Source: a virus
Lineage: Duplodnaviria > Caudoviricetes
Strand: one strand, 5' to 3'
DNA length: 59,396 bases
IMG/VR virus record: IMGVR_UViG_3300044535_000237
Location: 1 to 59,396 of that record
Shown: positions 1,181 to 59,396 of the stretch, in pieces
Position numbering within the stretch: position 1 is the first letter of the stretch
How the letters are laid out: each line of letters starts with the position of its first letter
Translations under genes and position numbers: made by a program
Notes under the pieces: model-generated
Databases searched by the model: none
What the model saw: only the letters and a program-made list of their open reading frames with translations
What the model was told of the DNA's origin: nothing

Positions 1181-3015
1181 TGGACATACTCACTGTAGAT
1201 ATTGAGACGTACTACGATGCACAATTCAGTTTGTCAAAGATGCAGACTGATGCGTACATAACCGACGAACGGTTTGAATTCATTGGAGTATGCGTTGCGA
1301 AGAATGACGGTGATCCCGTATGGTTCAGCGGCACTGAAGCAGAGATTCTTGAGTGGATGCACGTCAACTACGACTGGGGTAACTCCGCCGTAAGATGCCA
1401 CAATACTTTGTTCGATGGCTACGCGCTGACGCAACGACTAGGTATACGACCGAAGCTATGGATGGACACGCTCCCCCAAAGCCGCATGCTCTACCCCTAC
1501 TTAGTCTCTCACTCACTTGCTAACTTAACCAAATTCTTCGGATTCCCTGACAAGGGTACTGAAGTTGTTAAAGCTCTAGGCAAACGCCGCAATGACTTTA
1601 ATCCCACGGGATTAGCGGAATACGGCGATTACTGCAAGCATGACACATGGCTATGCCGTGCAATTGGCGAGAAGATGGATGCGTTCACGCCGCCACTGGA
1701 AGTTCGTTTGATCGACATGACTGTGCGTATGTTCACAGAGCCTATGCTTGTGGGCGATGTTGCTGTGATGGATCGGCTGTACCACGAAGAAGTTGCACGC
1801 AAAGAAGACCTGATGCGTTCGCTCATTGTCGGGAAGGACACGCTGATGTCCAACGACAAGTTTGCAGAACAGCTCGAGCTACTAGGTGTTAGCCCACCTA
1901 AGAAGATAAGCCCCGCAACAGGGCGTGAGACCTTTGCCTTTGCTAAAAGTGACAAGGGCTTTACTGACTTGCTCGACCACGAAGACTCAGGTGTTCAGGC
2001 ACTGGTAGCCGCACGCCTTGGCGTCAAGACAACCATTGCAGAAACCCGTGCGCTTAAGTTCGTGGATACTGCAAAGCGTGGCCCTCTGCCGGTGTACCTC
2101 AACTTCTGGGGTGCTAAAACCACTGGCCGTTACTCGGGCGGCAACAGTATCAACTGGCAGAACATCCCCGCCCGTGGGCCGTCTGCGGGTTTGCGTAACG
2201 CCCTGCTTGCCCCTGCCGGACACACCGTGCTTGTAGGTGACTCGTCCAACATCGAGCTTCGCACAGTGATGGCTTTGGCCGGACAGGATGACGTGGTAGA
2301 GAAGTTGGCCAATGGCGTGGACTTGTACTGCGACTTTGCGTCCAAGCTCTTTGGTCGTGACATTACCAAGGCAGACAAGGCTGAGCGTTTCTTGGGTAAG
2401 ACCGCGATGCTCGGGTTGCAGTACGGTGCCGGTGCTCCGCGCTTTCAAGAGATGGTTCGTATCGCAGCGCGTACTGATCCGGCTGTAAAAGCTATTGACC
2501 TTGATCGTGCGTACGACATCGTGAACCTATACCGCTCAGTACATCACAAGGTAGTTGACCTATGGGGTAGGTGTCAGCAAGTAATCCTGCCCGACATTGC
2601 CAATGGTTGTAGCCTGATGACTGTGGATGTCAACGGATGGTTTATCACACAGAAGGATGGCTTCGGACGTCCGGGTGAGCCCGGTGTGATGTACCACGAC
2701 CTGAAGTACGACGGCAAAGAGTGGACATACTTAATGGGCAAACAACGTGTGCGTATCTTCGGCCCGAAAGTTGTAGAAAATTTATCACAACATGCTGCAA
2801 TGCGGATCGTTATGTGGCAAACTGCACGTATCAACGAACGGTACCCCGTCAAGCTGTCAGTCCATGACGAAGCAGTCTGCGTAGTACCAAATGAAGAACT
2901 TACTCAAGCACGCGCCTATATGGAAGAGTGCCTATCTCTAACACCCAAGTGGTGTCGGAGCATTCCCGTATCTTGTGAGACGGGTGTAGGCCCGTCGTAT
3001 GGTGCGGCGAAATAG
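1180..3015 (+). CDS. polA: Family A DNA polymerase with 3'-5' exonuclease domain (Leu762 type)
   Basis: ExoI DIET, ExoII HN..FD, ExoIII YC..D; TGRYSG..INWQNIP; motif A D.SNIELR; motif B R..GKTAMLGLQYG; motif C VHDE. Confidence 0.95.
   Translation: MDILTVDIETYYDAQFSLSKMQTDAYITDERFEFIGVCVAKNDGDPVWFSGTEAEILEWMHVNYDWGNSAVRCHNTLFDGYALTQRLGIRPKLWMDTLPQSRMLYPYLVSHSLANLTKFFGFPDKGTEVVKALGKRRNDFNPTGLAEYGDYCKHDTWLCRAIGEKMDAFTPPLEVRLIDMTVRMFTEPMLVGDVAVMDRLYHEEVARKEDLMRSLIVGKDTLMSNDKFAEQLELLGVSPPKKISPATGRETFAFAKSDKGFTDLLDHEDSGVQALVAARLGVKTTIAETRALKFVDTAKRGPLPVYLNFWGAKTTGRYSGGNSINWQNIPARGPSAGLRNALLAPAGHTVLVGDSSNIELRTVMALAGQDDVVEKLANGVDLYCDFASKLFGRDITKADKAERFLGKTAMLGLQYGAGAPRFQEMVRIAARTDPAVKAIDLDRAYDIVNLYRSVHHKVVDLWGRCQQVILPDIANGCSLMTVDVNGWFITQKDGFGRPGEPGVMYHDLKYDGKEWTYLMGKQRVRIFGPKVVENLSQHAAMRIVMWQTARINERYPVKLSVHDEAVCVVPNEELTQARAYMEECLSLTPKWCRSIPVSCETGVGPSYGAAK
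1599..1614. promoter_or_regulatory. 16-bp dyad TAATCCCACGGGATTA (intragenic copy in polA)
   Basis: Exact match to the palindrome repeated in the early region. Confidence 0.6.
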
Positions 3016-48377: not shown

Positions 48378-48507
48378 TAGCCTACTATCACGCGCAGGCT
48401 CCAAAATTAAGGGTCAAACCAGAATTAAACCCCAAAAACCCGTATAATAAACACATGGGCGAAAGAGACCAAAACAAACATTAACTTATTTACTCAAGGA
48501 AATTATC

Positions 48508-49023
48508 ATGGCTAGAATTGCAAAACCCGTCACATTCGCACGCGCTATCTCTGACAAGCGCGAGTCACTCGCACAAGCTCGCAATGATGTGAAAGAGCTC
48601 GAGTCACAATCTAAAGAGTTTATTGCCGCGTACGCCGTCGTCAACGCGATAATTGAAAACGCCCAGCAAATCGGATTTGCAAAGCATTTTTATGCGCGTC
48701 CTACAACTTACCTGAAATGGGACGGTAATTATCGCAATGAATTGAATGTGTCAATTGAAGACACAGTAACATCGCTGAAAGACGGCGCAGTTCCTGCTTT
48801 GCTCGAAGCGATCGGCACGTACGGTTTCGAGTGCGATAGCACATTCGATTATGCGCTAGAGTTTGTTGCCTCCCGCGTTTTTCGTCACACGGCGAAAATC
48901 GGTTCAGTAGACGTCACAATTCGAGTCGAAGCAAATATTGCAGACGGTTCAGAATCTTGCAAAAAGGTTCAGACCGGCATAAAGCTTGAAGAGACCGCGG
49001 TTTATGAAATCGTTTGCTCTTGA
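48508..49023 (+). CDS. Hypothetical early protein
   Basis: AAGGA RBS; TATAAT at 48443; ACTTATTTACT leader. Confidence 0.75.
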   Translation: MARIAKPVTFARAISDKRESLAQARNDVKELESQSKEFIAAYAVVNAIIENAQQIGFAKHFYARPTTYLKWDGNYRNELNVSIEDTVTSLKDGAVPALLEAIGTYGFECDSTFDYALEFVASRVFRHTAKIGSVDVTIRVEANIADGSESCKKVQTGIKLEETAVYEIVCS

Positions 49024-49105
49024 TATTCTGAGCGCAATCGCGGTGGGCCTCGCGCTCACCGCGCTAGCACTACATTATTTTGACGTTCTCTTCTTCTGAA
49101 GCCGG

Positions 49106-49128
49106 GCCCGCATTCGCGGGCTTTTTTT
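49106..49128 (+). terminator. Rho-independent terminator
   Basis: GCCCGC-ATTC-GCGGGC followed by T7. Confidence 0.85.
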
Positions 49129-49135
49129 CGTCCCA

Positions 49136-49156
49136 AAACTATCACTACTATCACAT
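49136..49156 (+). repeat. 21-bp direct repeat AAACTATCACTACTATCACAT (second copy at 50092-50112)
   Basis: Identical copies, each just after a terminator. The ACTATCAC core also occurs at 48384, 49255 and 50133. Confidence 0.85.
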
Positions 49157-49272
49157 TTTCCACTTGACAAGATAGCTAAGTTAGTATCCACTAACATTTC
49201 AGTATGCGATGAGTGACGCACGACGGATGACGGACGACGTATGTACCCCTAACTACTATCACCCGCGACCAC

Positions 49273-49288
49273 AAATCCCATGGGATTA
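49273..49288. promoter_or_regulatory. Dyad variant AAATCCCATGGGATTA abutting a -35 box
   Basis: One arm mismatch to the consensus palindrome. Confidence 0.7.
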
Positions 49289-49289
49289 G

Positions 49290-49319
49290 TTGCGCCTTAT
49301 GAGCAAGTTGTGGTATACT
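49290..49319 (+). promoter_or_regulatory. Putative sigma70 promoter (TTGCGC-18-TATACT, extended -10)
   Basis: TGgTATACT upstream of the 49388 gene. Confidence 0.6.
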
Positions 49320-49387
49320 TGACGTATGCCAAGTGAGGCATGCCCGCCTAGGGGTTTTCTAGGTTACTTGTTTACTAAGGAGCTCAC

Positions 49388-50029
49388 ATGAGCAAAGCAA
49401 TCAAAGCCGCCACTGTTACAGTGGCAACACGCGACGCGGCCATTGGCACGTTGATCAACGAAGCCGGTCAAGCCGCCCAAAGCATGTTGACCAAGTGCAA
49501 AGAAGCCGCCCAAAAAGCGGCCGGTCAACTTGACGCGACAAAACCAATGGGTGACCGGATCGCGGGTGTAGTGTCACTTTACGCGGCCGATTTCACAGCG
49601 GCCGGTCATAACGTCAAAGCATTATTTGTAGATGCCCTCACTTTGCACGCGGCCGCCCAGTGCCCCGTTATGGTGAACACCATTGGCAAAGACGGGAAAA
49701 AAGTGGACACGCCGTCAACGGCGGCCGAGGCGGTCAACATGCCCAAGCATGCAATGCGAGACGCGGCCAAGCAAGTTCGCGAAGTGCACGGGATCGGCCG
49801 CAAAACCGGAGGCGGCCGCAAAACCACAGTGGCCAAAACACCAACGGCCGCGCCCGCGCCTGATATGGTCAAAACAGAGACGGACAAATTTTCCGCATGG
49901 TTAGATGATATGGACGTTTATTTCAAAGATGCGGTTTTTCACCCGCGCATTGTCGCGCACATGATAACCCTAGGCTATAGCGTCAACAAAGCGGCCAAGG
50001 GTAAAGTGGTCAAGGGCTCCGCGACCTAA
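49388..50029 (+). CDS. Hypothetical Ala/Lys-rich early protein
   Basis: AAGGAG RBS; flanked by its own promoter and terminator. Confidence 0.8.
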   Translation: MSKAIKAATVTVATRDAAIGTLINEAGQAAQSMLTKCKEAAQKAAGQLDATKPMGDRIAGVVSLYAADFTAAGHNVKALFVDALTLHAAAQCPVMVNTIGKDGKKVDTPSTAAEAVNMPKHAMRDAAKQVREVHGIGRKTGGGRKTTVAKTPTAAPAPDMVKTETDKFSAWLDDMDVYFKDAVFHPRIVAHMITLGYSVNKAAKGKVVKGSAT

Positions 50030-50048
50030 ACCAACCGGTTCACCGGCC

Positions 50049-50072
50049 AAACCCCCGCAAGGGGGTTTTTTT
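50049..50072 (+). terminator. Rho-independent terminator
   Basis: AAACCCCC-GCAA-GGGGG followed by T7. Confidence 0.88.
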
Positions 50073-50196
50073 CGTCCAAATTTTTTGGCCGAAACTATCA
50101 CTACTATCACATCGTGCCATGCACTAAAAACTACTATCACGCGCGGCCCAGTATGCGACGATGTACGCGGTACGCATGTCGTATGCATGACGAATT

Positions 50197-50212
50197 TAAT
50201 CCCGTGGGATTA
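50197..50212. promoter_or_regulatory. 16-bp dyad TAATCCCGTGGGATTA
   Basis: Consensus palindrome in non-coding DNA. Confidence 0.75.
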
Positions 50213-50269
50213 CTTAGAGTGTTGTAGATTGACAACTTTCCTTTAACCATGCGGGTTGCGACGTAAGTG

Positions 50270-50680
50270 AACGCTTTTTTAGATTACACGAAACTTACAA
50301 ATCTAAATTAGTTTGCTTGTTTAATTGTACGTATGTTGTATGGATGAGCTAAGTTGTTGATTCTAAAGGCTTTTTTCGGGTAGCGGGCACTGGGGACTGG
50401 CATATATATATATAAATTAGTTAATTAGTTAATAGTTAGTAGTATTAGAGAGCAAAAGGTAAATTCCTGTAGCCTGTTCAAGTGTTTCGGCGTGTAACGT
50501 ATGCAACCCCCCAAACTATTTACTCTCTAGCCTGAAAACCCAACTAATTGACTAAAGTGAGCAAAATCAATGACTTACAATTTTTAGTCTGACTAATTTC
50601 CCAACTAACCCATCTATTGGGCTGACTAATTGCCCGAACTAACCAACATCCAAATGTGTTGTTGTATGGGACTAATTTAT
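50270..50680. other. AT-rich non-coding region with inverted iteron-like repeats (candidate origin)
   Basis: (AT)n tract at 50402, ATTAGTT runs on the left, ACTAAT/ACTAAC runs on the right; TGACTAATT.CCC.AACTAACC twice. Confidence 0.5.
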
Positions 50681-50692
50681 CTACCCCTTGAG

Positions 50693-50721
50693 TTGACAAC
50701 AACACATTTACGTGGTACAAT
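50693..50721 (+). promoter_or_regulatory. Strong sigma70 promoter TTGACA-17-TACAAT (extended -10)
   Basis: TTGACAacaacacatttacgTGgTACAAT. Confidence 0.8.
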
Positions 50722-50776
50722 GTACCCATCAAGTCGAAAAGCCCTCAAGCAAATCGATGCGATAAACGTCCCGCAC

Positions 50777-50792
50777 TAATCCCGCGGGATTA
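50777..50792. promoter_or_regulatory. Perfect 16-bp palindrome TAATCCCGCGGGATTA
   Basis: Between the promoter and the RBS of the 50829 gene. Confidence 0.75.
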
Positions 50793-50828
50793 ACTCCCTC
50801 ACTTATTTACGTATCACTGGAGATCATC

Positions 50829-51599
50829 ATGACAACAAATGCACATGTTGCCGCACGCTTTGCGTCTGCGGCTAAGAAACTCGTCGGCACTGAAATGCGC
50901 TCACTTGGTGTAGGCACTAATATGTCTGCACGCAACCCGACACTTTCCCAACAAACGTCAATCAACCTAGAATCTGACGGGCACTTCGACGTGTTAGCCA
51001 TCGGCTATTCATACACCACAGAAGTTGCTCAGTTAGTACACAACAACCACACAAACAACGTGGAGCTATGGATGCACGTAAGCGCATTCTCACCAACAAC
51101 CAAGCAACACAAGTCTTTGTACTTCAATGCTTTTTTGGAGCAACAAAAGGATGCAGGCGTGCCCTATGAAGTTGCCGTCAAGAAAGTTTACCGCACTGGG
51201 TGTTTCGAGCAGGGTTACCGCACACGGCAAAGGTGGACTGACAAATCCCGCAGTCATTTCAACGCGCTGACTAAACCACATCGTGCCGAGGCTTGCCAAT
51301 ATGGCATGGATTACGACCATGCTATGAACAGTCTGGAAGAGGCCGCGACTCGCCCTCGGTTGCATGATGCAACGAGGTTTGCACTTTTATACGATGCTCG
51401 GGCTCACCTTGAGAGTTGCATTCGCAACGTGTCGCAGGACGTTAACCCCAGTTCAGTCATTGCCTTATCACACGACAACCCTGAGTTCTTGGACGCATGC
51501 CGCGACGTGCTTGACTTCATCTTTGTCGTGTGCGACTACCCCGTCAAGCAGATGCGCGTAGCAACGGCCGGTTTTGTAGCCCTTCACACCAACAACTAA
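50829..51599 (+). CDS. Hypothetical early protein (256 aa)
   Basis: GGAG RBS; its stop TAA is the first three bases of a dyad. Confidence 0.8.
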   Translation: MTTNAHVAARFASAAKKLVGTEMRSLGVGTNMSARNPTLSQQTSINLESDGHFDVLAIGYSYTTEVAQLVHNNHTNNVELWMHVSAFSPTTKQHKSLYFNAFLEQQKDAGVPYEVAVKKVYRTGCFEQGYRTRQRWTDKSRSHFNALTKPHRAEACQYGMDYDHAMNSLEEAATRPRLHDATRFALLYDARAHLESCIRNVSQDVNPSSVIALSHDNPEFLDACRDVLDFIFVVCDYPVKQMRVATAGFVALHTNN

Positions 51600-51612
51600 T
51601 CCCACGGGATTA
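51597..51612. promoter_or_regulatory. 16-bp dyad TAATCCCACGGGATTA overlapping a stop codon
   Basis: Exact consensus, followed directly by AAGGA RBS. Confidence 0.75.
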
Positions 51613-51623
51613 AAGGAAATATC

Positions 51624-52040
51624 ATGGACAAAACACTTAAAAGCTATCAACTCACGATCTATTCGGTTGTGACCAAACTACACACTGTGGAAGCATCCAG
51701 TATTGAGGAGGCTAAAACAATGGGAGGTGACATCATGAGCCCCTTGGAATTTGGCGATGAGGGCTCAGACTCGCACTGGAATCAGTCTGTGATTGCCGTC
51801 AAGGAATTGCCGTACCACCTGCGCAACTTGACACTGGAGGAAGTTGCGTTTGTCGACGCATATTGCAGGGCGGTAGCGGTAGCCCCGCGTTCAGAGGTTG
51901 TGCGATTTATGGCCACTGACTCTGAGTACCGGTCTAGCCGTGAGTTCTACGACTCGATGGGTGAGTATTACACGTCCATCATGGACGCTAAAGAGGTTTG
52001 GTATTTCGCAATGCAGTTTGCGACGGAGGTTCGGAAATGA
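51624..52040 (+). CDS. Hypothetical early protein
   Basis: AAGGA RBS; VEA.S.EEA motif common in small phage proteins. Confidence 0.75.
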   Translation: MDKTLKSYQLTIYSVVTKLHTVEASSIEEAKTMGGDIMSPLEFGDEGSDSHWNQSVIAVKELPYHLRNLTLEEVAFVDAYCRAVAVAPRSEVVRFMATDSEYRSSREFYDSMGEYYTSIMDAKEVWYFAMQFATEVRK

Positions 52041-52321
52041 GCAGACTCAAAAACTTAATCATCGACTTGCTCGAGGATCACCACCCTGCAGAACTGGAAG
52101 AGATCACGGGTGCAGACTGGGATACGTGTTTCAAGCTCGTGCATGAGATACGCAAGGATGGGGGCTTTGACTCCAACGACTGGGAACCGGTGAAGTCCGG
52201 TGACATATGGGCGATCTACGGCAAGACCTTCTCGGCTGAGTGGATCGATGAGCATGGCGAGTGCCTAGCGTTTGACACCAAGCGCGAAGCTAATGAATAT
52301 ATCAGGGAAAACATTAAATGA
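52037..52321 (+). CDS. Hypothetical acidic protein
   Basis: GGAGG RBS; ATGA coupling. Confidence 0.7.
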   Translation: MSRLKNLIIDLLEDHHPAELEEITGADWDTCFKLVHEIRKDGGFDSNDWEPVKSGDIWAIYGKTFSAEWIDEHGECLAFDTKREANEYIRENIK

Positions 52322-52506
52322 ACGAAACAAATCAAATGATTTTAAACATCGGCTTTGATGCGGGCGATGGTTGGCAAGAACGGTTAGCTGACGCATTACT
52401 TGCAATTCAAGCACATGTGCGCGAAAGTGAGACCTTGCGTGTAGCTGACACACTCGACGGCACTAACTTCACGGCGACGTATACCCTTTTCGGAGAACTT
52501 AAATGA
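52318..52506 (+). CDS. Hypothetical protein
   Basis: ATGA coupling on both sides. Confidence 0.6.
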   Translation: MNETNQMILNIGFDAGDGWQERLADALLAIQAHVRESETLRVADTLDGTNFTATYTLFGELK

Positions 52507-52661
52507 CTGATCGCAAAAAAGCAGAACTGTTGGGTGAGGCACTGAACAACCTCATGCAATCCGCTCACAACTACATCGAGGATGGATCATGGTTGAATGA
52601 CGTGCTCTATGACATTCAGCACGCACGAGACTTGATAAAAAGAATTGAGGCTGAAAAATGA
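52503..52661 (+). CDS. Hypothetical protein, 52 aa
   Basis: Hand-translated MTDRKKAELLGEALNNLMQSAHNYIEDGSWL...; GGAG RBS; ATGA coupling. Confidence 0.6.
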   Translation: MTDRKKAELLGEALNNLMQSAHNYIEDGSWLNDVLYDIQHARDLIKRIEAEK

Positions 52662-52747
52662 TGACCAAATGGGAAAAACTGGAGCGCGTTGTGCTCTTGC
52701 TTGGGATTATTGTTGTGTTACTTGACTTATTTATTTGGAGACCGTAA
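52658..52747 (+). CDS. Single-TM micro-protein, 29 aa
   Basis: Hand-translated MMTKWEKLERVVLLLGIIVVLLDLFIWRP; coupled at both ends. Confidence 0.55.
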   Translation: MMTKWEKLERVVLLLGIIVVLLDLFIWRP

Positions 52748-53031
52748 TGACTTTTACCATACATGAAACCTTTGAATACAGCATCGGTGAGTTTGCTTTG
52801 CCGTACCTTATCAATGCCGACTCGACGGGGCTCAATGACGAGGAACATTCTCTTGTAGATGAGTGGTTCGACTCGAGCACTGACCAGTGGCGAGACGCTG
52901 ACGACAACTTGTGGGTGTATACCCACATGTCTGTGGTTGAGGATTCTCGTGAAGAGTTTGCGTACGACGACATCACCGGCCACTACGGCACGACGCAAAA
53001 AGTCATTTTGTTTTTTATCAGAGTAGTCTAA
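52747..53031 (+). CDS. Hypothetical acidic protein
   Basis: TAATG coupling; LPYLIN.D.TGL.DEE motif; stop lies inside a dyad. Confidence 0.7.
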   Translation: MTFTIHETFEYSIGEFALPYLINADSTGLNDEEHSLVDEWFDSSTDQWRDADDNLWVYTHMSVVEDSREEFAYDDITGHYGTTQKVILFFIRVV

Positions 53032-53044
53032 TCCCACGGGATTA
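53029..53044. promoter_or_regulatory. 16-bp dyad TAATCCCACGGGATTA overlapping a stop codon
   Basis: Exact consensus. Confidence 0.75.
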
Positions 53045-53058
53045 AGAAAGGAACTATT

Positions 53059-53463
53059 ATGGGATACCGATCAGACGTAAAGTATGTCTTACTATTTAAT
53101 ACTGACGAGCAACGCCAAGCGTTTAAGTTGGAGGCAATGCTCATTGCCGCTGACATTGAGTCAGGGCTAGACGTTATCAACAACGACTGGGAATATAAAA
53201 TCGACCTGCACGATGAGGACTTTCCATACCAGATACGTACGCATTACGAGGACGTTAAGTGGTACGAGTCAACGCCATGGGTTAGCCTGCAGGAAAAACT
53301 CATGGACTTGGTTGTCAGTGACTACGGGGGAGGGTATGTGTTCCTGCGGTTAGGCGAGGAAAACGATGACGTGGAATGCGACCATGACTGCTCGGGTGAG
53401 CGCGATACCTATTTGTACGCCGACAACTATGTCGAAGTCATTCGTAAATCTGAATTTGTTTAA
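53059..53463 (+). CDS. Hypothetical acidic protein (MGYRSDV...VKWY...F.RLGEE..D family)
   Basis: AAGGA RBS; recognisable recurring phage motif of unknown function. Confidence 0.75.
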   Translation: MGYRSDVKYVLLFNTDEQRQAFKLEAMLIAADIESGLDVINNDWEYKIDLHDEDFPYQIRTHYEDVKWYESTPWVSLQEKLMDLVVSDYGGGYVFLRLGEENDDVECDHDCSGERDTYLYADNYVEVIRKSEFV

Positions 53464-53472
53464 GGGGCAATC

Positions 53473-54075
53473 ATGAGCTATGACGATATAACACATGAGG
53501 AAATGTTCACGCACAAGTGCGGCAAGGTGTACCGCGTGCGTTGGCTACCGGACTATGACACAGACTCTCCGCTCGAGTGGTCAGACAATCACGGGGTTGT
53601 TGTCGAGATGGATTGGAACCCGCTGAATGCCGAGCAGATGGAGCAGCACATCGTTGACGAAGAGCCTGATCTTGAGGAAGAGACGCGCCTTCGCATGCTG
53701 AAACCACTGTTTACAAATACAGGCCGACAGGTACGCAAGTTGTACTACGACATCTTCTCGTCGCTAGAAGTTGCACGCAGGGAGTGGGGGCAACCTACGC
53801 CCGAGGATCGCCTTCGTGCAGTGGAGCAGGACTACAAGTATCTGAAGGGTTGGTACGATAACGACTGGCATTGGGTGCATCTTGAGGTAACACTCATGGT
53901 TGATGGCGTGCCTGACTTCACGCATCAGTACAACGTAGGCGGATACGAGAGCGGCCTTGCGCTTGACACTGACTTGGAAGAAGACAAGATCGACACGATC
54001 AATCAGGCCATCAAAGAACTGGAATGGGATAGACGCGAGTCATTGCATCCCGGACAACTGGAGTTAGCACTATGA
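53473..54075 (+). CDS. Hypothetical acidic protein
   Basis: AGGGG RBS; D..YL.GW...DWHW motif. Confidence 0.75.
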   Translation: MSYDDITHEEMFTHKCGKVYRVRWLPDYDTDSPLEWSDNHGVVVEMDWNPLNAEQMEQHIVDEEPDLEEETRLRMLKPLFTNTGRQVRKLYYDIFSSLEVARREWGQPTPEDRLRAVEQDYKYLKGWYDNDWHWVHLEVTLMVDGVPDFTHQYNVGGYESGLALDTDLEEDKIDTINQAIKELEWDRRESLHPGQLELAL

Positions 54076-54314
54076 AACGAATGACTGACAAAGATCGCAT
54101 GGTCATCATGCGTGCAGAATTGGCTTTGATTGTTGAAGCTAAGGACATGCCGAAACACGTGGCCAGTTGGAGCTATGAACAACTCAAAGAAATCCTCGAG
54201 CACGCCAAAGACACTGGAGCAATCCCGTGGCACGTATACGCTGACGAAGATTTGTACGCTGAGCATCAAGACAAACTATCACGAAGCAAATTGCGCGGGT
54301 CGCCCTTAGCTTGA
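54072..54314 (+). CDS. Hypothetical protein
   Basis: ATGA coupling; GGAG RBS. Confidence 0.65.
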   Translation: MKRMTDKDRMVIMRAELALIVEAKDMPKHVASWSYEQLKEILEHAKDTGAIPWHVYADEDLYAEHQDKLSRSKLRGSPLA

Positions 54315-54339
54315 CAACTGGGCAATAACCTGTTACAAT
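54311..54339 (+). promoter_or_regulatory. Strong sigma70 promoter TTGACA-17-TACAAT (extended -10)
   Basis: TTGACAactgggcaataaccTGtTACAAT. Confidence 0.8.
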
Positions 54340-54383
54340 AATGACATGGACTAGGGGATCGCCCACACCCTTAGTTCTTTCCG

Positions 54384-54399
54384 TAATCCCGTGGGATTA
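54384..54399. promoter_or_regulatory. 16-bp dyad TAATCCCGTGGGATTA plus ACTTGTTTACT leader
   Basis: About 45 bp downstream of the -10 box. Confidence 0.75.
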
Positions 54400-54423
54400 A
54401 CTTGTTTACTTATGGAGATCATC

Positions 54424-54795
54424 ATGGATCAATCACAACTGTTATCTATTTTCGGCGGCGTGTACGACAAACTTGTGTCGGACGTTGCAGACGCAGTTAT
54501 CAGCAAAATGAAAGCTGAGACTCAGGCCGTGCTTGCGCTTGACGCAGACACATTAAAAGCATCGCTTCTTGAGCTACTCAATGACGATGACCAAACACAG
54601 GAAGCTGTGCGCGAGGCGTCGGTTGTCTACATCGACGATCAGGTCACTAGTAAGGTTGAGGACGCAATGAACGACTTCGACTTCGAGTCCAAGATCGACG
54701 ACGTTGTTGACCAGAAGCTAGAGAACTTCGAGCCCAACTTCTCAGGCGGTGACTTCGAAGAAGCCGTCAAGACCGTCATTCGTGACGCCCTCTAA
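54424..54795 (+). CDS. Hypothetical highly acidic helical protein
   Basis: GGAG RBS before MDQSQ; D/E-rich C-terminus; stop lies inside a dyad. Confidence 0.75.
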   Translation: MDQSQLLSIFGGVYDKLVSDVADAVISKMKAETQAVLALDADTLKASLLELLNDDDQTQEAVREASVVYIDDQVTSKVEDAMNDFDFESKIDDVVDQKLENFEPNFSGGDFEEAVKTVIRDAL

Positions 54796-54808
54796 TCCCA
54801 CGGGATTA
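54793..54808. promoter_or_regulatory. 16-bp dyad TAATCCCACGGGATTA overlapping a stop codon
   Basis: Exact consensus. Confidence 0.75.
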
Positions 54809-54829
54809 GCCTTTTAACTGGAGAACATT

Positions 54830-55711
54830 ATGTCTATTAAAGATCACGCACTGTTAGTTTCCCTCACTGTCAACAAACCACAGATGACACAGAAGGACGG
54901 CAAGGCTACGGCCGATGCCGAGTCTGCCAACAACGCCCATGGTGCAGGGCAGTATCGCAAGGACTTGTACCCCAAGTCACTGGTGCAACCGATCGTTGCA
55001 GTGGAGACGCAAGCCCGTGCCTACATTGACAGCACCACATACCCGTGGCACAGAGGCGAGGACTTGTTGCCCTCTTCACGTTTCATGCAGTTCGCTGACC
55101 GCATGGCCAAGTTCGATCTCGAGTTCGATCAGGCGGTGACTGCGTTCCTCAACAACTGGAGCAACGTCATGATGCTTGCACAGAATAGTCAGGGCGGGTT
55201 GTTTGATCCCAACGCATACCCTGACTTGTCTGACCTACGCAGATCGTTTCGCTTCCGCATCAACTACCGCCCCGTCACTGACATGGGTGACTTCCGCGTA
55301 TCCATGCAAGAGGAAGAGCTCAGCACCTTGCGTCAGCAAGTTGAGGAGGCGACAAAGGAATCGATGAACGCGATCATGCGTGCACCCCTCGAGCGTCTGA
55401 AGCAAGTGGTTGCTCGCTTACATGATGTGACCGGCAAGGGTGAGCGTGAGATCATCAACAAGAGAACCGGTATCGGTGAGATTCGATCGCCCATCTTCCG
55501 CGACTCGGTGTGTGAGAACATTGCCGAAGAGATAAACTTGTTGCATGACTTCGCTGACATTCTTCCGGACAACATCCTTGCACTGGCAAAGACAGTCATC
55601 GACACGACGCCGCATCCACAACAGTTGCGCGACGACCCCGAGAAACGTAAGGCGGTTAACGTGCAGACAACTGCACTGCTTGCGTCCATCGACGAGATGC
55701 TCGAGTTCTGA
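54830..55711 (+). CDS. DUF3150-like protein
   Basis: ALLV.L.V, K.L, R......T.PW...G..LLP...F, YP....LR..F, FRDS...N motifs; adjacent to the MoxR ATPase. Confidence 0.6.
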   Translation: MSIKDHALLVSLTVNKPQMTQKDGKATADAESANNAHGAGQYRKDLYPKSLVQPIVAVETQARAYIDSTTYPWHRGEDLLPSSRFMQFADRMAKFDLEFDQAVTAFLNNWSNVMMLAQNSQGGLFDPNAYPDLSDLRRSFRFRINYRPVTDMGDFRVSMQEEELSTLRQQVEEATKESMNAIMRAPLERLKQVVARLHDVTGKGEREIINKRTGIGEIRSPIFRDSVCENIAEEINLLHDFADILPDNILALAKTVIDTTPHPQQLRDDPEKRKAVNVQTTALLASIDEMLEF

Positions 55712-55712
55712 T

Positions 55713-55741
55713 TTGCACTTGACTCAGAACCCTAGTAAGAT
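55713..55741 (+). promoter_or_regulatory. Putative sigma70 promoter TTGCAC-17-TAAGAT
   Basis: Spacing and hexamer match; a dyad lies 18 bp downstream. Confidence 0.55.
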
Positions 55742-55759
55742 AGGCACACACGGGAGCCT

Positions 55760-55775
55760 TAATCCCGTGGGATTA
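55760..55775. promoter_or_regulatory. 16-bp dyad TAATCCCGTGGGATTA plus ACTTGTTTACT leader
   Basis: Exact consensus upstream of the ATPase. Confidence 0.75.
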
Positions 55776-55803
55776 AAAACTTGTTTACTTAAAGGAAATC
55801 ATC

Positions 55804-56811
55804 ATGCGTATTGCACACGTTACCCCCATCCTCGTTAAGCGTTACCTCAACGACAACACACGAGCACGTACAACCTTTTTGCGCGGCCCGTCGGGTATCG
55901 GCAAGTCGGAGGTTGTGTTCCAGACAAGCAAGCTATTGTCTGAGCATGTATCCAACTGGCAGGGTGTAGTTGACCTACGTCTCGCACAGATGGAGCCCAC
56001 TGATTTGCGCGGTATCCCGCACGTTGTCGATGGCCGCACACACTGGGCACGCCCTGACTTTCTGCCCGCAGATGGCGCGGGTATTCTGTTCCTCGACGAG
56101 ATCACATCAGCACCGCCCTCAGTGCAGGCGGCCGCGTACCAGTTGTGCCTGACGCCCGAGGACTTTGGCATCCCCGCAGAGTGGATGGTCATTGCCGCAG
56201 GCAATCGCAAGACCGACCGAGGCGTGACGTACAACCTAGCCGCACCACTACAGAACCGCATGTGTGACATCGAAGTCAACACAACGATCGACGACTTCAC
56301 ATCGCACGCCATCACACGTGGCATTCGTCCAGAGATTCTGGCCTTGTTACAAGACCGCCCTGACTTGTTGCACAAGTTCGAGCCCACTGGTGACATTCGT
56401 CCCTTCCCCTCACCTCGCTCATGGTTCGCTGTGTCGCACACACTGGAGCTTGACCTCCCTGTGCAGGATCGCGTCGAGCTTATCAAGGGTGACGTTGGTG
56501 AAGAGGCGGCCATGATCTTCGAGACACACTTGCGTGTGTGGGAGTCGATGCCACGTATCGAGGACATTCTGCAAGGCAAGGACGTGCCTGTGCCCAAGGA
56601 ACTCAACGTACGCTATTGCGTCGCAATGGGATTGGCTACGCGCCTTGATGCTACCAACTTTGACAAGGCATGGAAGTTCTTGTCCAAGATGCCCGGTGAT
56701 GTACAGACACTTACGATTAAACTTGCACACAAACGTGACCGCACGATCACTAAGAGTTCAGCGTTCACCCAGTGGGCTATCGCGAACCAAGCCGCGTTTG
56801 CGATGAAATGA
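55804..56811 (+). CDS. MoxR-like AAA+ ATPase
   Basis: Walker A GPSGIGKS, D.RL....P.DL.GIP, Walker B ILFLDEI, AAGN...D, L.NR, PSPRSW. Confidence 0.92.
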   Translation: MRIAHVTPILVKRYLNDNTRARTTFLRGPSGIGKSEVVFQTSKLLSEHVSNWQGVVDLRLAQMEPTDLRGIPHVVDGRTHWARPDFLPADGAGILFLDEITSAPPSVQAAAYQLCLTPEDFGIPAEWMVIAAGNRKTDRGVTYNLAAPLQNRMCDIEVNTTIDDFTSHAITRGIRPEILALLQDRPDLLHKFEPTGDIRPFPSPRSWFAVSHTLELDLPVQDRVELIKGDVGEEAAMIFETHLRVWESMPRIEDILQGKDVPVPKELNVRYCVAMGLATRLDATNFDKAWKFLSKMPGDVQTLTIKLAHKRDRTITKSSAFTQWAIANQAAFAMK

Positions 56812-57086
56812 TGGTTGACAAACGACCAGAGCTTCGATGGCAGAACACACCTGTGGGTGCTTGGACTGCCTACGTTGAGAAACGTTCGAAGGCTAGCTCA
56901 CTCAAGCAGATGCACGTCAAGCATGCGTTTGCGTTCGTTCGCCCTGCCTACAATGTATCTGGTCTACTTGACGCAGATCGTGGTTGGGTTGTGACACGCA
57001 ACACGTTCGATGATGTGCAATCGTTTGATGACTTGACTACTGCTCGGGTGTTTGTTGAGTCGTTGTTTGCATTGGAATATAATTGA
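56808..57086 (+). CDS. Hypothetical protein
   Basis: ATGA coupling to the ATPase. Confidence 0.65.
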   Translation: MMVDKRPELRWQNTPVGAWTAYVEKRSKASSLKQMHVKHAFAFVRPAYNVSGLLDADRGWVVTRNTFDDVQSFDDLTTARVFVESLFALEYN

Positions 57087-57088
57087 CC

Positions 57089-57104
57089 TAATCCCACGGG
57101 ATTA
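57089..57104. promoter_or_regulatory. 16-bp dyad TAATCCCACGGGATTA plus ACTTGTTTACT leader
   Basis: Exact consensus, 2 nt after a stop codon, upstream of the vWA gene. Confidence 0.75.
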
Positions 57105-57129
57105 ACTTGTTTACTTACTGGAGAAAATT

Positions 57130-58278
57130 ATGACAACCTTATCTGATCGAATCGATCTTGCATACAGCAAGCTCGGCCTTCGTGAATCATTCATTGCCGC
57201 TGTGATGACACGCGTCAAGCGTGAGATATCTGACAAGGTATCTACTGCAGGAACCAATGGCGCGTGGGTTCGCTTTAACCCTGCGTTCTGTGATCCGCTG
57301 ACTGACGAGGAATTGTTTGGCCTTGTGTTGCATGAGGCGGTGCACGTTGTGCTGATGCACATGTGGCGTCGTGAGAGCCGTGATCCGAGTTTGTGGAACT
57401 ACGCCAACGATGCGCTTATCAATGCGTACATACGTAGTCGTGGATGGCAACTGCCCAAGGGCGGCGTCAACGTAGGATGGGTGCGTGAGAGCATGTCCTC
57501 AGAAGAAGTCTACGCCAAGCTCAAAGAAAACCCGCCACCGCCACAAGGCGGTAAGGGCTCAGGTGATGGTGATGGCGATGAGGAAAGCCAACCCAATGCA
57601 GGTGGCTTCGATGGCAAGGGTGATCTCGAAGATGCTCAAGATGATGCTACTCGTGTGGACATGGAGGCAACTATTGTAGCCGCAGCTCGTATGGCCAAGG
57701 AATGTGGTCAGGGCTCTAGCTTGATCGATCGTGTGCTTGACAACGTAGGCCAACCCCATGTGCGGTGGCAAGACGTGACTCGTTCCATGATGACTGAATC
57801 GTCTGCCGCTGACTACACCTACACGCGCCCCTCGCGTCGCTTCATTGGCTCTGGCTTGTACTTGCCATCGCTTCGCACTGACTCACTCGGTGGCTTGGCT
57901 ATTGGCTTTGATACATCAGGATCAATGGGGCCCAAGGAATGCAACCAGATCGCCGCCGAGATTCAGGCGATCGTTGACGACTTGCAACCATCATTCGTAG
58001 AAGTTATTTACTGCGACTACCACGTGACGCACATCGAGCGGTTCGAGCGGGACGACATGCTTGCCCTGCATCCCAAGGGCGGTGGCGGTACGCGCTTTCA
58101 GCCAGTGTTCGAGCACCTCGACAAATCAGACGAGCGTTACTGCGGCATGATTTTCTTCACTGACATGGAGGGCAACTTGGACGAATGCGAGGAGCCAACC
58201 TATCCTGTCATCTGGGCCGACATCGGCCAGTCCCATCCACGTGAGCCTTTCGGCACACGGGTTACCGTAGCATTATGA
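57130..58278 (+). CDS. DUF2201-type metallopeptidase (HExxH) + vWA domain protein
   Basis: TAGT.G....FNP.F, HEAVH....H..RR, WNYA.D..IN; MIDAS DTSGSM, GGGGT.F, FTD.EG. Confidence 0.9.
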   Translation: MTTLSDRIDLAYSKLGLRESFIAAVMTRVKREISDKVSTAGTNGAWVRFNPAFCDPLTDEELFGLVLHEAVHVVLMHMWRRESRDPSLWNYANDALINAYIRSRGWQLPKGGVNVGWVRESMSSEEVYAKLKENPPPPQGGKGSGDGDGDEESQPNAGGFDGKGDLEDAQDDATRVDMEATIVAAARMAKECGQGSSLIDRVLDNVGQPHVRWQDVTRSMMTESSAADYTYTRPSRRFIGSGLYLPSLRTDSLGGLAIGFDTSGSMGPKECNQIAAEIQAIVDDLQPSFVEVIYCDYHVTHIERFERDDMLALHPKGGGGTRFQPVFEHLDKSDERYCGMIFFTDMEGNLDECEEPTYPVIWADIGQSHPREPFGTRVTVAL

Positions 58279-59201: not shown

Positions 59202-59396
59202 AAACGCAGATGCAGTGCAAATTGGTGGATCGCACTATAAAGATATGCCAGTACAACCTTGGAATGTCATGTCCGCTGTGTTGACGCGCGAAGAATTTAT
59301 AGGGTTTCTGAAAGGCAACATTATTAAATACTCGATGCGTGCAGGACGAAAAGATGGCAGTGACGATGGCAACAAAGCATTGCACTACATCCACAA
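59182..59396. repeat. Terminal direct repeat, right copy (contains the truncated variant DUF3310 gene from 59194)
   Basis: Matches 1-215 with 9 substitutions. Confidence 0.95.

What the first reader, a model, noticed from the sequence alone, without database searches (positions are those of the whole stretch)
49273..57104. Genome-organising 16-bp dyad TAATCCCnnGGGATTA punctuates the early region (10 copies, no visible cognate regulator)
Seen: copies at 49273 (AAATCCCATGGGATTA), 50197, 50777, 51597, 53029, 54384, 54793, 55760 and 57089, plus one at 1599. The 7-bp arms are almost invariant. The central 2 bp are AC, GT, GC or AT, so both orientations occur, which points to a DNA-level dyad bound by a dimer rather than an oriented RNA signal. 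Three copies supply the TAA stop of the upstream gene (51599, 53031, 54795) and one sits 2 nt after a stop. Others lie 18-55 bp downstream of sigma70 -10 boxes (50777, 54384, 55760) or abut a -35 box (49273). I saw none in the 38-kb structural arm. Inference: either (i) a multi-operator/roadblock system that silences the whole early arm (analogous to mycobacteriophage L5 stoperators, but symmetric), with the binding protein among the unannotated early ORFs or supplied by the host, or (ii) recombination sites that bound exchangeable gene cassettes. No cI-like HTH repressor or recombinase was recognisable, so either mechanism would use an uncharacterised protein.
Basis: partly seen in the sequence, partly recalled or inferred. 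Interest (0 to 1): 0.85.

Follow-up and report, generated by a model that had tools for sequence, protein, structure and literature searches.

The report
Invariant 16-bp palindrome punctuating phage early genes
An uncultured freshwater-type podophage and about 75 relatives carry some ten copies of one exact 16-base palindrome in the gaps between their early genes, most likely docking sites for an unidentified two-fold symmetric regulator that controls the whole early gene arm.

Summary
TAATCCCRYGGGATTA occurs 10 times in the window against 0.05 expected. All copies lie in the + strand early/replication arm.

It is conserved in 74 of 76 related viral loci. The 14 arm bases are invariant at orthologous sites, for example 63 of 63. 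The central R-Y pair flips freely between AC, AT and GT. Two diverged relatives have replaced every copy with their own palindrome, TATTCCCATGGGAATA and TAATTTTGCAAAATTA, at the same kinds of position.

True RNA hairpins in the same leaders covary instead. Canonical terminators are different hairpins. Homology breakpoints are not enriched at dyads.

The pattern points to sequence-specific, two-fold symmetric recognition by a co-evolving trans factor. My best reading is a multi-copy DNA operator or roadblock set for an unidentified dimer (0.45). An RNA hairpin read by a protein or RNase is the main rival (0.25).

No HTH or RHH protein, recombinase or phage RNA polymerase could be identified. 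The kind is known (stoperators, KorB operators), but this variant is new: symmetric, gene-punctuating, in a lytic-looking podophage.

The parts
49273..49288 (.). Dyad copy, imperfect (AAATCCCATGGGATTA). It lies between the oriented box ACTACTATCAC (49252) and the -35-like TTGCGC (49290) of the 213-aa gene 49388-50029.
   Evidence: The same box-dyad-promoter layout occurs in 13 of 15 loci, including L076 with its own dyad variant.
50197..50212 (.). Dyad copy (centre GT) at the left edge of the ~800-bp non-coding stretch 50030-50828.
50777..50792 (.). Dyad copy (centre GC). It lies 55 nt after the -10 of the sigma70-like promoter 50693-50721 and 36 nt before ATG 50829.
   Evidence: One metatranscriptome contig begins at 50776, which is a weak hint only.
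51597..51612 (.). Dyad copy (AC). Its TAA is the stop of ORF 50829-51599. The SD follows at once and ATG 51624 is 11 nt after the dyad.
53029..53044 (.). Dyad copy (AC). Its TAA is the stop of ORF 52747-53031. ATG 53059 is 14 nt after the dyad.
54384..54399 (.). Dyad copy (GT). It lies 44 nt after the -10 of promoter 54311-54339 and is followed directly by the leader box ACTTGTTTACT, an SD and ATG 54424.
54793..54808 (.). Dyad copy (AC). Its TAA is the stop of ORF 54424-54795. ATG 54830 is 21 nt after the dyad.
55760..55775 (.). Dyad copy (GT), followed by the leader box and ATG 55804 (AAA_5 / MoxR-like ATPase gene).
57089..57104 (.). Dyad copy (AC). It lies 2 nt after the stop of ORF 56808-57086 and is followed by the leader box and ATG 57130 (DUF2201 metallopeptidase/VWA gene).
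   Evidence: A dyad is present in 33 of 44 distinct upstream regions of this gene in relatives.
1599..1614 (.). Dyad copy (AC) inside the DNA polymerase A ORF 1180-3015, read in frame as N-P-T-G-L.
   Evidence: In most relatives this site is the imperfect TAATCCCATGGAATTA (N-P-M-E-L). It is lost in more distant relatives (L054, L057).
49290..49319 (+). Sigma70-like promoter of the 213-aa gene (TTGCGC, 18 nt, TGgTATACT), abutted by dyad 49273.
   Evidence: Read. Equivalent -35/-10 pairs follow the dyad at 1-13 nt in relatives.
50693..50721 (+). Sigma70-like promoter (TTGACA, 17 nt, TACAAT, with TG) upstream of dyad 50777.
   Evidence: 11 of 12 matches.
54311..54339 (+). Sigma70-like promoter (TTGACA, 17 nt, TACAAT, with TG) upstream of dyad 54384.
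   Evidence: 11 of 12 matches.

Best explanation
The dyads are a multi-copy set of binding sites on double-stranded DNA for one sequence-specific, two-fold symmetric (homodimeric) protein. Each half-site is TAATCCCR. The protein is not identified; it may be one of the phage's unannotated early proteins or, less likely, a host protein.

The sites fill the minimal gaps of the + strand early/replication arm: at a gene's stop codon, just before the next ribosome-binding site, downstream of early promoters, and once beside a -35 box. Occupancy would therefore control transcription of the whole arm in a coordinated way, through promoter occlusion at 49273 and roadblocks elsewhere. A plausible use is early-gene shut-off or dosage control.

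Shown: the sites, their symmetry, their invariance, their clade-wide conservation and their concerted replacement.

For: 1. Far above chance and restricted to one arm. The window has 10 copies against 0.05 expected. Five near-complete relatives have 10-12 copies each, all within 17 kb or less of 58-61 kb.

2. Sequence invariance, not just structure. In the four largest of 94 orthologous-site clusters (404 instances), the arms are perfect in 63/63, 44/45, 38/38 and 32/35. Flanking bases carry under 0.2 bit, except -1 C and +16 A. By contrast, a hairpin in the 5' leader of gene 49388 changes sequence by compensatory changes in 5 of 5 predicted pairs among 10 relatives.

3. Palindromic degeneracy. 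The centre is R-Y in 325 of 328 distinct instances (AC 125, AT 119, GT 64, GC 17). This is a single rule, purine at half-site position 8, applied on both strands. At one orthologous site the centre flips (AC 21, AT 30, GT 12 of 63), so there is no fixed orientation.

4. Concerted replacement.
- L075 has TATTCCCATGGGAATA x5. L076 has TAATTTTGCAAAATTA x6 (0.00 expected).
- Both variants are again R-Y centred and occupy the same kinds of position.
- The L076 version would be an all-A-U RNA hairpin of -0.2 kcal/mol, against -4.9 to -5.9 for the main form.

5. One conserved site class lies outside an obvious transcript. It sits after terminator 49104-49123 and directly upstream of a -35 box, in 13 of 15 loci, including L076 with its own variant.

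6. From established knowledge: reading all 7 base pairs of each arm is typical of major-groove readout of B-DNA by dimers and unusual for RNA-hairpin binders.
Against: No DNA-binding protein was found.
- Pfam and PHROGs on the early ORFs gave no HTH, RHH or ParB hit. The only trace is a sub-threshold RHH hit (E 0.094) for the 52-aa ORF 52503-52661.
- The two folded candidates matched no solved DNA binder. The 95-aa protein 58286-58573 gave pLDDT 84. The 213-aa protein 49388-50029 gave pLDDT 72.9.

Site geometry relative to promoters is not fixed. Sites sit about -45, +38 and +49 from promoters, or have no promoter nearby.

188 of 315 distinct sites lie 40 nt or less upstream of a start codon. 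In three units the dyad sits exactly where a covarying RNA hairpin sits in the leader of gene 49388, directly 5' of the leader box ACTTGTTTACT. Both facts fit an RNA-level role as well.

Single-mismatch variants are asymmetric: G12>A occurs in 10 site clusters and its mirror C5>T in 1. A purely symmetric reader does not predict this.

One RNA contig starts 1 nt before dyad 50777.
Confidence: 0.45

Rival explanations
1. RNA-level element. Once transcribed, each dyad folds into a 6-bp hairpin with a CRYG loop in the intercistronic or 5' leader RNA. A sequence-specific RNA-binding protein or endoribonuclease reads it. This would give early-mRNA-wide translational repression beside the SD (as T4 RegA or RNA-phage coat proteins do), cistron-by-cistron processing or stabilisation, or nut-like antitermination.
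For: - All gene-proximal copies are on transcribed + strand DNA.
- 188 of 315 distinct sites are 40 nt or less upstream of an SD and start codon. In 118 of the 279 sites that are not inside an ORF, the dyad's TAA is the upstream stop.
- The dyad occupies the same slot, directly 5' of the leader box ACTTGTTTACT, as a covarying RNA hairpin in the leader of gene 49388.
- The hairpin is predicted at -4.9 to -5.9 kcal/mol.
- Dyads 50777 and 54384 lie about +49 and +38 from strong promoters, a nut-like distance.
- One metatranscriptome contig begins at 50776; contigs cannot prove an RNA end.
Against: - Every stem base is invariant, whereas real structural hairpins in the same genomes covary.
- The L076 variant is an all-A-U hairpin of -0.2 kcal/mol.
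- The loop rule R-Y is exactly the palindromic one and flips between CACG and CGUG at the same site.
- The commonest imperfect form, G12>A, gives a C-A mismatch in + strand RNA, whereas the wobble-compatible C5>T is rare (10 against 1 clusters).
- The conserved site beside the -35 of gene 49388 lies after a terminator.
- No RNA-binding protein or RNase was recognised.
Confidence: 0.25
2. The reader is a host transcription factor. The dyad mimics the operator of a host dimeric regulator that the phage borrows to time its early genes. The variant dyads of L075 and L076 would reflect different hosts.
For: No phage-encoded DNA binder was recognisable. Each motif variant is clade-specific.
Against: - Of the 80 loci I held and checked, 79 had a single site in scattered taxa. 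The only locus with more than one site (L089, 3 sites) is itself a contig of a related phage.
- No paper in the library holds the 16-mer.
- The motif stays identical across relatives down to 55% protein identity. That would require one conserved host factor.
Confidence: 0.1
3. Promoter or other signal for a phage-encoded, possibly virion-borne, RNA polymerase. The dyad would be extruded as a DNA hairpin, as in N4 early promoters, and would start transcription of the gene just downstream.
For: - Dyads sit 11-36 nt before 7 of 10 start codons in the window.
- The genome layout is a + strand replication arm converging on a - strand virion arm that ends in a giant 2083-aa protein. This resembles N4-like and crAss-like phages.
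- That protein has an invariant D-Y-D-I-D at residue 1795. This recalls the DFDxD signature of the crAss-like virion RNAP (abstract and passages of bioRxiv 10.1101/2020.03.07.982082).
- G12>A gives a G-T wobble in a template-strand hairpin.
Against: - A perfect palindrome with a flipping centre carries no direction.
- In 51597 and 53029 the SD starts right at the dyad's end, leaving no room for a start site with a leader.
- The giant protein has no hit in Pfam, PHROGs or a PDB profile search.
- hhalign against phi14:2 gp66 gives probability 0.14%.
- The positional counterpart in Rhizobium phage RHph_TM3_14A has no DxDxD at all.
- The oriented box CTACTATCA[CT] (91 + against 2 - strand copies) is a better promoter candidate.
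- The loop is 2 or 4 nt, not the 3 nt of N4 promoters (that figure is recalled).
Confidence: 0.07
4. Recombination signposts. Identical 16-mers serve as crossover points that shuffle early gene cassettes, like the PeSL elements of T4-type phages.
For: - Dyad-to-dyad intervals differ between relatives, for example 1432, 1069 and 1531 bp for 51597-53029.
- Homology to 11 of the 18 relatives printed resumes at 55774-55787, at or within 12 nt of the 3' edge of dyad 55760-55775 (10 of them within 4 nt). Homology starts at 54788-54793 in five of the 18.
Against: - Of 58 recurrent breakpoints, 3 lie within 25 nt of a dyad edge, and 4 if the broad 55647-55804 cluster is counted. 23 lie at gene boundaries, most of which have no dyad.
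- Whole-gene indels at 52321/52492, 54075/54310 and 703/840 have no dyad.
- Inserted genes do not bring a dyad with them: L020 and L030 show no extra copy.
- No recombinase was recognised.
Confidence: 0.05

Closest known systems
Stoperators of cluster A mycobacteriophages (L5 gp71 repressor sites). Recalled knowledge; 'stoperator' occurs in PMC12266134, of which I read the abstract and outline only.
   Same: Many copies of one short motif lie in short intergenic gaps of a phage arm and not only at promoters. The idea is that bound protein blocks elongating RNA polymerase and silences a whole arm.
   Different: Stoperators are 13-bp, asymmetric and orientation-dependent. They are bound by a known immunity repressor of a temperate phage and occur in both arms. 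Here the site is a 16-bp perfect palindrome without orientation. It is confined to one arm. No repressor or integrase was recognised.
KorB operators (OB) of plasmid RK2 and parS/ParB-type palindromes (recalled).
   Same: About a dozen copies of one palindrome of 13-16 bp are spread over a replicon. A dimer reads them and coordinates the expression of many operons from variable distances to promoters.
   Different: These are plasmid systems with a ParB-family protein. No ParB-like domain was found in the early ORFs scanned here. The sequence is unrelated.
PeSL (promoter-early stem-loop) cassettes of T4-type phages. PMC2839356 and PMC4122927; search listing and abstract starts only.
   Same: Repeated motifs with a stem-loop flank small early genes of variable content.
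   Different: PeSLs are composite promoter-terminator motifs proposed to mediate modular shuffling. Here the dyad has no conserved promoter part, and breakpoints are not enriched at it.
Start-associated sequences (SAS/ESAS) of cluster K mycobacteriophages (recalled; not retrieved).
   Same: A conserved motif recurs immediately upstream of start codons of many genes, and its factor is unknown.
   Different: SAS is an asymmetric 13-mer tied to the start codon at a fixed short distance. Here the distance to the start codon ranges from 1 to over 100 nt and the motif is symmetric.
Lambda-type nut boxB hairpins and RNA-phage coat-protein operators (recalled).
   Same: A short hairpin of fixed sequence in early leader RNA, or beside an SD, is read by a phage protein.
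   Different: Those systems have 1-2 sites per genome, and loop bases are read while stems may vary. Here there are about 10 sites and every stem base is fixed.
GTTACC-N6-GGTAAC dyads of Rhizobium phage RHph_TM3_14A (found here).
   Same: This syntenic distant relative (DNA polymerase 34% identical) carries its own recurrent dyad. There are 15 copies genome-wide, 12 of them in the early/replication arm, against 0.00 expected.
   Different: The sequence differs, the 6-bp spacer is free, about half of the copies lie inside annotated CDS, and 3 copies lie outside the arm. Whether the function is the same is unknown.

Membership tests
Stoperator-type multi-site repressor system (cluster A mycobacteriophages) | Many copies of one motif in intergenic gaps across a transcribed arm | tested here: met
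   10 copies, 9 of them intergenic, within 49273-57104 plus 1599. Five relatives have 10-12 copies each.
Stoperator-type multi-site repressor system (cluster A mycobacteriophages) | Asymmetric site whose orientation is tied to the direction of transcription | tested here: not met
   The site is a perfect palindrome. Its centre flips between AC, AT and GT at the same orthologous site.
Stoperator-type multi-site repressor system (cluster A mycobacteriophages) | Cognate phage repressor (HTH) encoded in the genome | tested here: inconclusive
   No HTH or RHH family was found above threshold in the early ORFs. Two candidates were folded without a DNA-binder match. Many ORFs were not folded.
Intrinsic (Rho-independent) terminator | G+C-rich stem-loop followed by a U tract | tested here: not met
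   Only 54792-54809 of the 10 dyads passed the terminator-like scan. Clear terminators at 49104, 50049 and 6888 are different, longer G+C-rich hairpins with T runs. At 51597 and 53029 the SD follows the dyad directly.
PeSL mobile regulatory cassette | Early promoter joined to the stem-loop in one conserved composite motif | tested here: not met
   There is no conserved sequence outside the 16-mer (under 0.2 bit, except positions -1 and +16).
PeSL mobile regulatory cassette | Gene gain/loss breakpoints fall at the motif | tested here: not met
   3 of 58 recurrent breakpoints lie within 25 nt of a dyad edge, against 23 at gene boundaries.
N4-type hairpin promoter for a virion RNA polymerase | A virion RNA polymerase is encoded | tested here: inconclusive
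   The giant 2083-aa virion-arm protein has an invariant DYDID, but no family, PDB-profile or hhalign support.
N4-type hairpin promoter for a virion RNA polymerase | Directional element with a 5-7 bp stem and a 3-nt loop upstream of the start site | tested here: not met
   The stem is 6-7 bp, but the loop is 4 (or 2) nt, and the element is fully symmetric with no conserved directional flank. The N4 loop length is recalled.
ParB/KorB-type palindromic centromere or operator set | A ParB-family protein is encoded | tested here: inconclusive
   No ParB-like Pfam hit in the ORFs scanned. The search is limited to sequence profiles.
Host regulator operator | The motif recurs in a bacterial genome at regulatory positions | tested here: inconclusive
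Of 80 loci examined, only a phage contig (L089) had more than one site. The host is unknown.

The most novel reading that the evidence does not exclude
A clade of uncultured podophages uses a symmetric, co-evolving 16-bp 'punctuation code'. One dimeric protein of a fold not recognisable as HTH, RHH or ParB reads a palindrome placed at nearly every early gene junction. It thereby switches a whole 10-kb arm of a lytic phage on or off. The code and its reader have changed together at least twice (TATTCCC..GGGAATA and TAATTTTG.CAAAATTA). This would be a symmetric counterpart of stoperators with a new reader, and a ready-made set of orthogonal operator-repressor pairs.
Probability: 0.3. Interest if true: 0.7.

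Novelty: new variant of a known kind. Interest (0 to 1): 0.55.

Why it matters
If a single dimer reads these sites, this clade shows how a lytic phage can gate an entire early gene arm with one protein and a short code written into the stop-to-start gaps. Three natural versions of the code point to co-evolving, mutually orthogonal operator-reader pairs.

Finding it would probably define a new DNA- or RNA-binding family.

The data set here makes the question directly testable. It comprises about 400 site instances in 94 orthologous positions, two variant codes, and an internal control of covarying RNA hairpins.

The kind of system, a multi-copy operator set, is known, and the phage is uncultured. 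For those reasons the interest is moderate rather than very high.

Tried and rejected
**Terminator reading.** Rejected, because canonical terminators elsewhere are different hairpins and most dyads have no U tract.

**Recombination-boundary reading.** Tested and not supported.

- Pfam and PHROGs on about 45 ORFs gave no HTH, RHH, ParB, recombinase or RNA polymerase hit.
- The ESM Atlas had no usable hit for 58286-58573. For the 213-aa protein it gave only sub-0.9 leads: DUF3102 at 0.80 and Phage_Repressor_c at 0.79.
- The AlphaFold models of both proteins had no Foldseek match at E <= 0.001.
- VIA-align wide, run on the 213-aa model only, gave a best Z of 5.6 on helical bundles. The C-terminal three-helix plus hairpin part (164-209, pLDDT 57-68) was barely tested.

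**Virion RNA polymerase idea.**
- phmmer and a 20-sequence profile against PDB found no polymerase.
- hhalign against phi14:2 gp66 gave probability 0.14%.
- The Rhizobium phage giant protein has no DxDxD.
- tblastn of the C-terminal 702 aa against phages gave one weak hit.

**Expression.** The single RNA run offered (X1, a freshwater metatranscriptome kept as contigs, share 0.05) covered 12 of 30 bins. A contig start at 50776 and a contig end at 54306 are noted, but contigs cannot show RNA ends. I draw no conclusion on habitat or expression.

**Host.** The genome-contig scan was truncated at 120 stretches. The viral scan for the A+T-rich L076 variant was truncated and, in the 80 rows shown, listed single sites only. 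The scan for the L075 variant found 13 stretches, of which only L075's own contig has 5 sites and two contigs have 2.

**Other relatives.** Pseudomonas phage Rollin (35 kb examined) and phi14:2 (45 kb examined) have no recurrent palindrome.

**Literature.** No paper holds the 16-mers. The A1002 (Kochitakasuvirus) structure paper does not mention an RNA polymerase or promoters (passages only). Supplementary files were not opened. The promoter tables of the phi14:2 and P23-45 papers might bear on the RNAP rival.

Full report
**What the window is.** The window is a whole IMG/VR virus record of 59,396 bp, estimated 99% complete. Its first ~215 and last ~215 bases overlap imperfectly, so it is a circularly closed assembly.

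Genes on the + strand run from about 48.5 kb across the ends to about 10.2 kb. They comprise:
- many small ORFs of unknown function;
- an AAA_5/MoxR-like ATPase (55804-56811);
- a DUF2201 metallopeptidase/VWA protein (57130-58278);
- DNA polymerase A (1180-3015);
- a PD-(D/E)XK nuclease, a VRR-NUC-like protein, an SNF2 helicase and a primase-polymerase/DUF927 protein.

The - strand from 48.2 to 11.0 kb holds virion genes: an SU10-like portal, an internal virion protein, tail spikes and a 2083-aa giant protein. The nearest cultured relatives are distant. DNA polymerase is 34% identical to that of Rhizobium phage RHph_TM3_14A, which is syntenic, and 29-32% identical to Pseudomonas phages Rollin and KPP25.

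The expectation is 0.05, and none of 100 shuffles reached 10. Nine copies are exact, and 49273 has A for T at position 1. The central pair is always purine-pyrimidine. No copy lies in the structural arm.

Three dyads supply the TAA stop of the upstream ORF, and one lies 2 nt after a stop. Seven lie 11-36 nt before an ATG with an SD. Copy 1599 is inside the polymerase ORF, in frame.

**Promoters and terminators.**
- Two strong sigma70-like promoters (50693, 54311) precede dyads by 55 and 44 nt.
- The apparent TATAAT before 57089 is the codons E-Y-N-stop of the upstream gene and is found only in close relatives, so I do not count it.
- Clear intrinsic terminators at 49104, 50049 and 6888 are different hairpins.

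**Conservation.** A scan with the DUF2201 protein returned 76 related viral loci with 47-100% identity.
- The main dyad is present in 74 of the 76.
- In 328 distinct instances with flanks, the 14 arm positions carry 1.55-2.0 bits. Nothing outside the 16-mer exceeds 0.2 bit, except position -1 (C, 0.56) and +16 (A, 0.70). The latter is largely the A of the following SD or of a TAA.
- The centre is AC 125, AT 119, GT 64, GC 17, AA 2 and TC 1.
- Five near-complete relatives carry 10-12 sites each, all inside 17 kb or less of their 58-61 kb.

**Position relative to genes.** Among 315 distinct sites:
- 188 have an SD and start codon within 40 nt downstream;
- 31 have one at 41-80 nt, and 19 at 81-150 nt;
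- 41 have none within 150 nt;
- 36 lie inside a + strand ORF, mostly the polymerase site.

In the 279 sites not inside an ORF, the upstream ORF stops on the dyad's own TAA in 118 and on its terminal TA plus the next base in 17.

**Sequence, not shape, is conserved.** Grouping 404 instances by their flanks gave 94 orthologous positions. In the four largest groups the arms are perfect in 63/63, 44/45, 38/38 and 32/35. Meanwhile the centre changes among AC, AT and GT within the same group. So the element has no fixed orientation, and only transitions are tolerated at the centre.

The same genomes provide a control. In the leader of the 213-aa gene (49388) two hairpins follow the promoter. The predicted stem of the second shows compensatory double changes in 5 of 5 pairs among 10 relatives. 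Structural RNA hairpins in this clade therefore drift and covary, whereas the dyad does not.

**Concerted replacement.** The two most diverged loci have no main-type dyad.
- L075 (47% identity) has TATTCCCATGGGAATA five times.
- L076 (49% identity) has TAATTTTGCAAAATTA six times, with 0.00 expected.

Both are 16-bp palindromes with an R-Y centre. Both occupy the same kinds of place: on a stop codon, directly before an SD or a leader box. In L076 one copy also lies between the oriented box and the -35 of the positional homologue of the 213-aa gene.

A set of about ten sites that changes as a whole implies a trans-acting reader that changed with it. As RNA, the L076 form would be an all-A-U hairpin of -0.2 kcal/mol, against -4.9 to -5.9 for the main form. 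That argues against a role resting on hairpin stability.

**DNA or RNA?**

For DNA:
- The R-Y centre is a single half-site rule (TAATCCCR) applied on both strands.
- The centre flips at orthologous sites.
- All seven base pairs of each arm are fixed. From general knowledge, this is typical of dimers reading B-DNA and unusual for RNA-hairpin binders.
- The L076 hairpin is weak.
- One conserved site class lies after a terminator and 1-13 nt upstream of a -35 box.

For RNA:
- The sites are tightly associated with stop codons and ribosome-binding sites.
- At 54384, 55760 and 57089 the dyad sits directly 5' of the leader box ACTTGTTTACT. That is the slot held by a covarying hairpin in the leader of gene 49388.
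- One metatranscriptome contig begins 1 nt before dyad 50777. This is a weak hint, because contigs do not show RNA ends.

An unexplained asymmetry remains. Among imperfect sites, G12>A occurs in 10 site clusters and its mirror C5>T in 1. G12>A breaks a + strand RNA pair, so it does not favour the RNA reading, but a purely symmetric DNA reader does not predict it either.

I put DNA-level recognition by a dimer at 0.45 and an RNA-level reader at 0.25.

**Other readings.**

Recombination. Of 58 homology breakpoints seen in at least two relatives, 3 lie within 25 nt of a dyad edge, or 4 counting one broad cluster. 23 lie at gene boundaries, most without a dyad. Whole-gene indels occur without dyads.

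Host regulator. Among the 80 loci I held and checked, only a related phage contig (L089, binned into a Candidatus Sericytochromatia MAG) had more than one site.

Phage RNA polymerase.
- The 2083-aa protein sits where N4-like and crAss-like phages keep their virion polymerases.
- It has an invariant DYDID. That motif resembles the DFDxD signature described for crAss-like virion RNAP (10.1101/2020.03.07.982082, abstract and passages) and the DxDxD search logic used for P23-45 (10.1101/2022.12.01.518664, passages).
- There is no profile, PDB or hhalign support.
- The Rhizobium phage counterpart lacks any DxDxD.
- A symmetric element is a poor promoter.
- If an injected polymerase exists, the oriented box CTACTATCA[CT] is the better promoter candidate. 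It has 5 copies at 48381-50140, and 91 + against 2 - strand copies in 25 loci. It is also conserved in L076, where the dyad changed.

No early ORF matches an HTH, RHH, ParB, recombinase or RNase family. The only trace is a sub-threshold RHH hit (E 0.094) for the 52-aa ORF 52503-52661.

Two proteins were folded:
- The nearly universal 95-aa protein 58286-58573 (pLDDT 84) has no solved look-alike.
- The 213-aa protein 49388-50029 is monocistronic and has the dyad beside its promoter. It folds (pLDDT 72.9) as a helical/beta-hairpin N-domain, a disordered basic linker with a conserved GGGRKTT, and a small low-confidence C-terminal domain of three helices plus a hairpin. It has no informative match.
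- The Atlas leads for the 213-aa protein (DUF3102 0.80, phage repressor c 0.79) are below the level that means anything.

**Comparison with known systems.** In function the closest known kinds are multi-copy operator sets: L5-type stoperators and RK2 KorB operators.
- It is not a stoperator in the strict sense. It is symmetric and orientation-free, confined to one arm, and comes with no recognisable repressor.
- It is not a PeSL cassette, an intrinsic terminator or an N4-type promoter by the features tested.
- A syntenic distant relative, Rhizobium phage RHph_TM3_14A, has its own recurrent dyad GTTACC-N6-GGTAAC. It has 15 copies, 12 of them in the early arm, and about half lie inside CDS.
- Pseudomonas phage Rollin has none in the 35 kb examined.

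**Verdict.** This is a real, strongly selected, clade-wide and co-evolving 16-bp palindrome set that punctuates the early genes. It is most likely the operator set of an unidentified symmetric regulator. It is a new variant of a known kind, with interest 0.55.

Noticed in passing
window 48381-48391, 49144-49154, 49252-49262, 50100-50110, 50130-50140: A second repeat, the oriented box (A/C)CTACTATCAC, occurs 5 times in the three leftmost early intergenic regions (7 hits with up to 1 mismatch against 0.81 expected). In relatives CTACTATCA[CT] is found 91 times on the + strand and 2 times on the - strand in 25 loci. It is kept in L076, where the dyad has changed. It is a candidate immediate-early promoter or factor site.
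   Followed up: partly
window 48484, 49366, 54400, 55779, 57105 (also variants near 50800 and 6940): A leader box ACTT(G/A)TTTACT lies directly 5' of the SD of the first gene of several units. It is conserved before the DUF2201 gene in nearly all relatives, whether or not a dyad is present. It looks like an extended ribosome-binding or translation-enhancer element.
   Followed up: partly
window 49326-49341 and 49346-49364: Two hairpins lie in the 5' leader of the 213-aa gene, the first starting at about the predicted transcript start. The second shows compensatory changes in 5 of 5 predicted pairs among 10 relatives. These are probably true RNA-structure elements.
   Followed up: partly
window 50260-50690: An A+T-rich non-coding stretch contains (TA)n and TAGTTAAT-like runs, plus three GACTAATT copies at 50591, 50624 and 50670. 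It lies between dyads 50197 and 50777 and is a possible replication origin. The 8-mer count alone is not significant (4 against 1.96 expected).
   Followed up: no
window 10992-17243 (- strand): The giant 2083-aa virion-arm protein has an invariant HExxH (about residue 1041) and an invariant DYDID (residue 1795). Some homologues carry PF18760, which I recall as the ART-PolyVal ADP-ribosyltransferase family; that name comes from no call. It matches no polymerase by profile or hhalign. It could be a polyvalent ejected protein, or possibly a very divergent two-barrel RNA polymerase.
   Followed up: partly
window 1-215 and 59182-59396: The two ends of the record are imperfect copies of each other, inside a DUF3310 gene. 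One related locus spans both. The record is therefore a circularly overlapping assembly with strain variation, not two paralogues.
   Followed up: partly
L081 (MN988472.1, Rhizobium phage RHph_TM3_14A): This phage has its own recurrent dyad, GTTACC-N6-GGTAAC, with 15 copies in the genome. 12 are in the early/replication arm and about half lie inside annotated CDS, against 0.00 expected.
   Followed up: partly
L089 (contig JBBAPZ010000024.1): A 45-kb contig binned into a Candidatus Sericytochromatia MAG is a relative of this phage (AAA_5 protein 89% identical) and has three dyads. This is a weak host hint, or a binning artefact.
   Followed up: partly
L054:12599 (DNA polymerase gene of a relative): At the position of the polymerase-internal dyad, one distant relative has a different perfect 14-bp palindrome, AGCCCGTACGGGCT, coding S-P-Y-G-L. 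This may be chance.
   Followed up: no
window 54830-58278: A conserved gene block comprises a 293-aa unknown protein, an AAA_5/MoxR-like ATPase, a small ORF and a DUF2201 metallopeptidase/VWA protein. The ATPase's best phage matches include N4-like phages and cyanophages.
   Followed up: no
window 10170-10990 (- strand): Four small, very basic Lys/Ala/Gly-rich ORFs lie between the converging arms. They are possibly DNA-associated virion proteins and were not searched.
   Followed up: no
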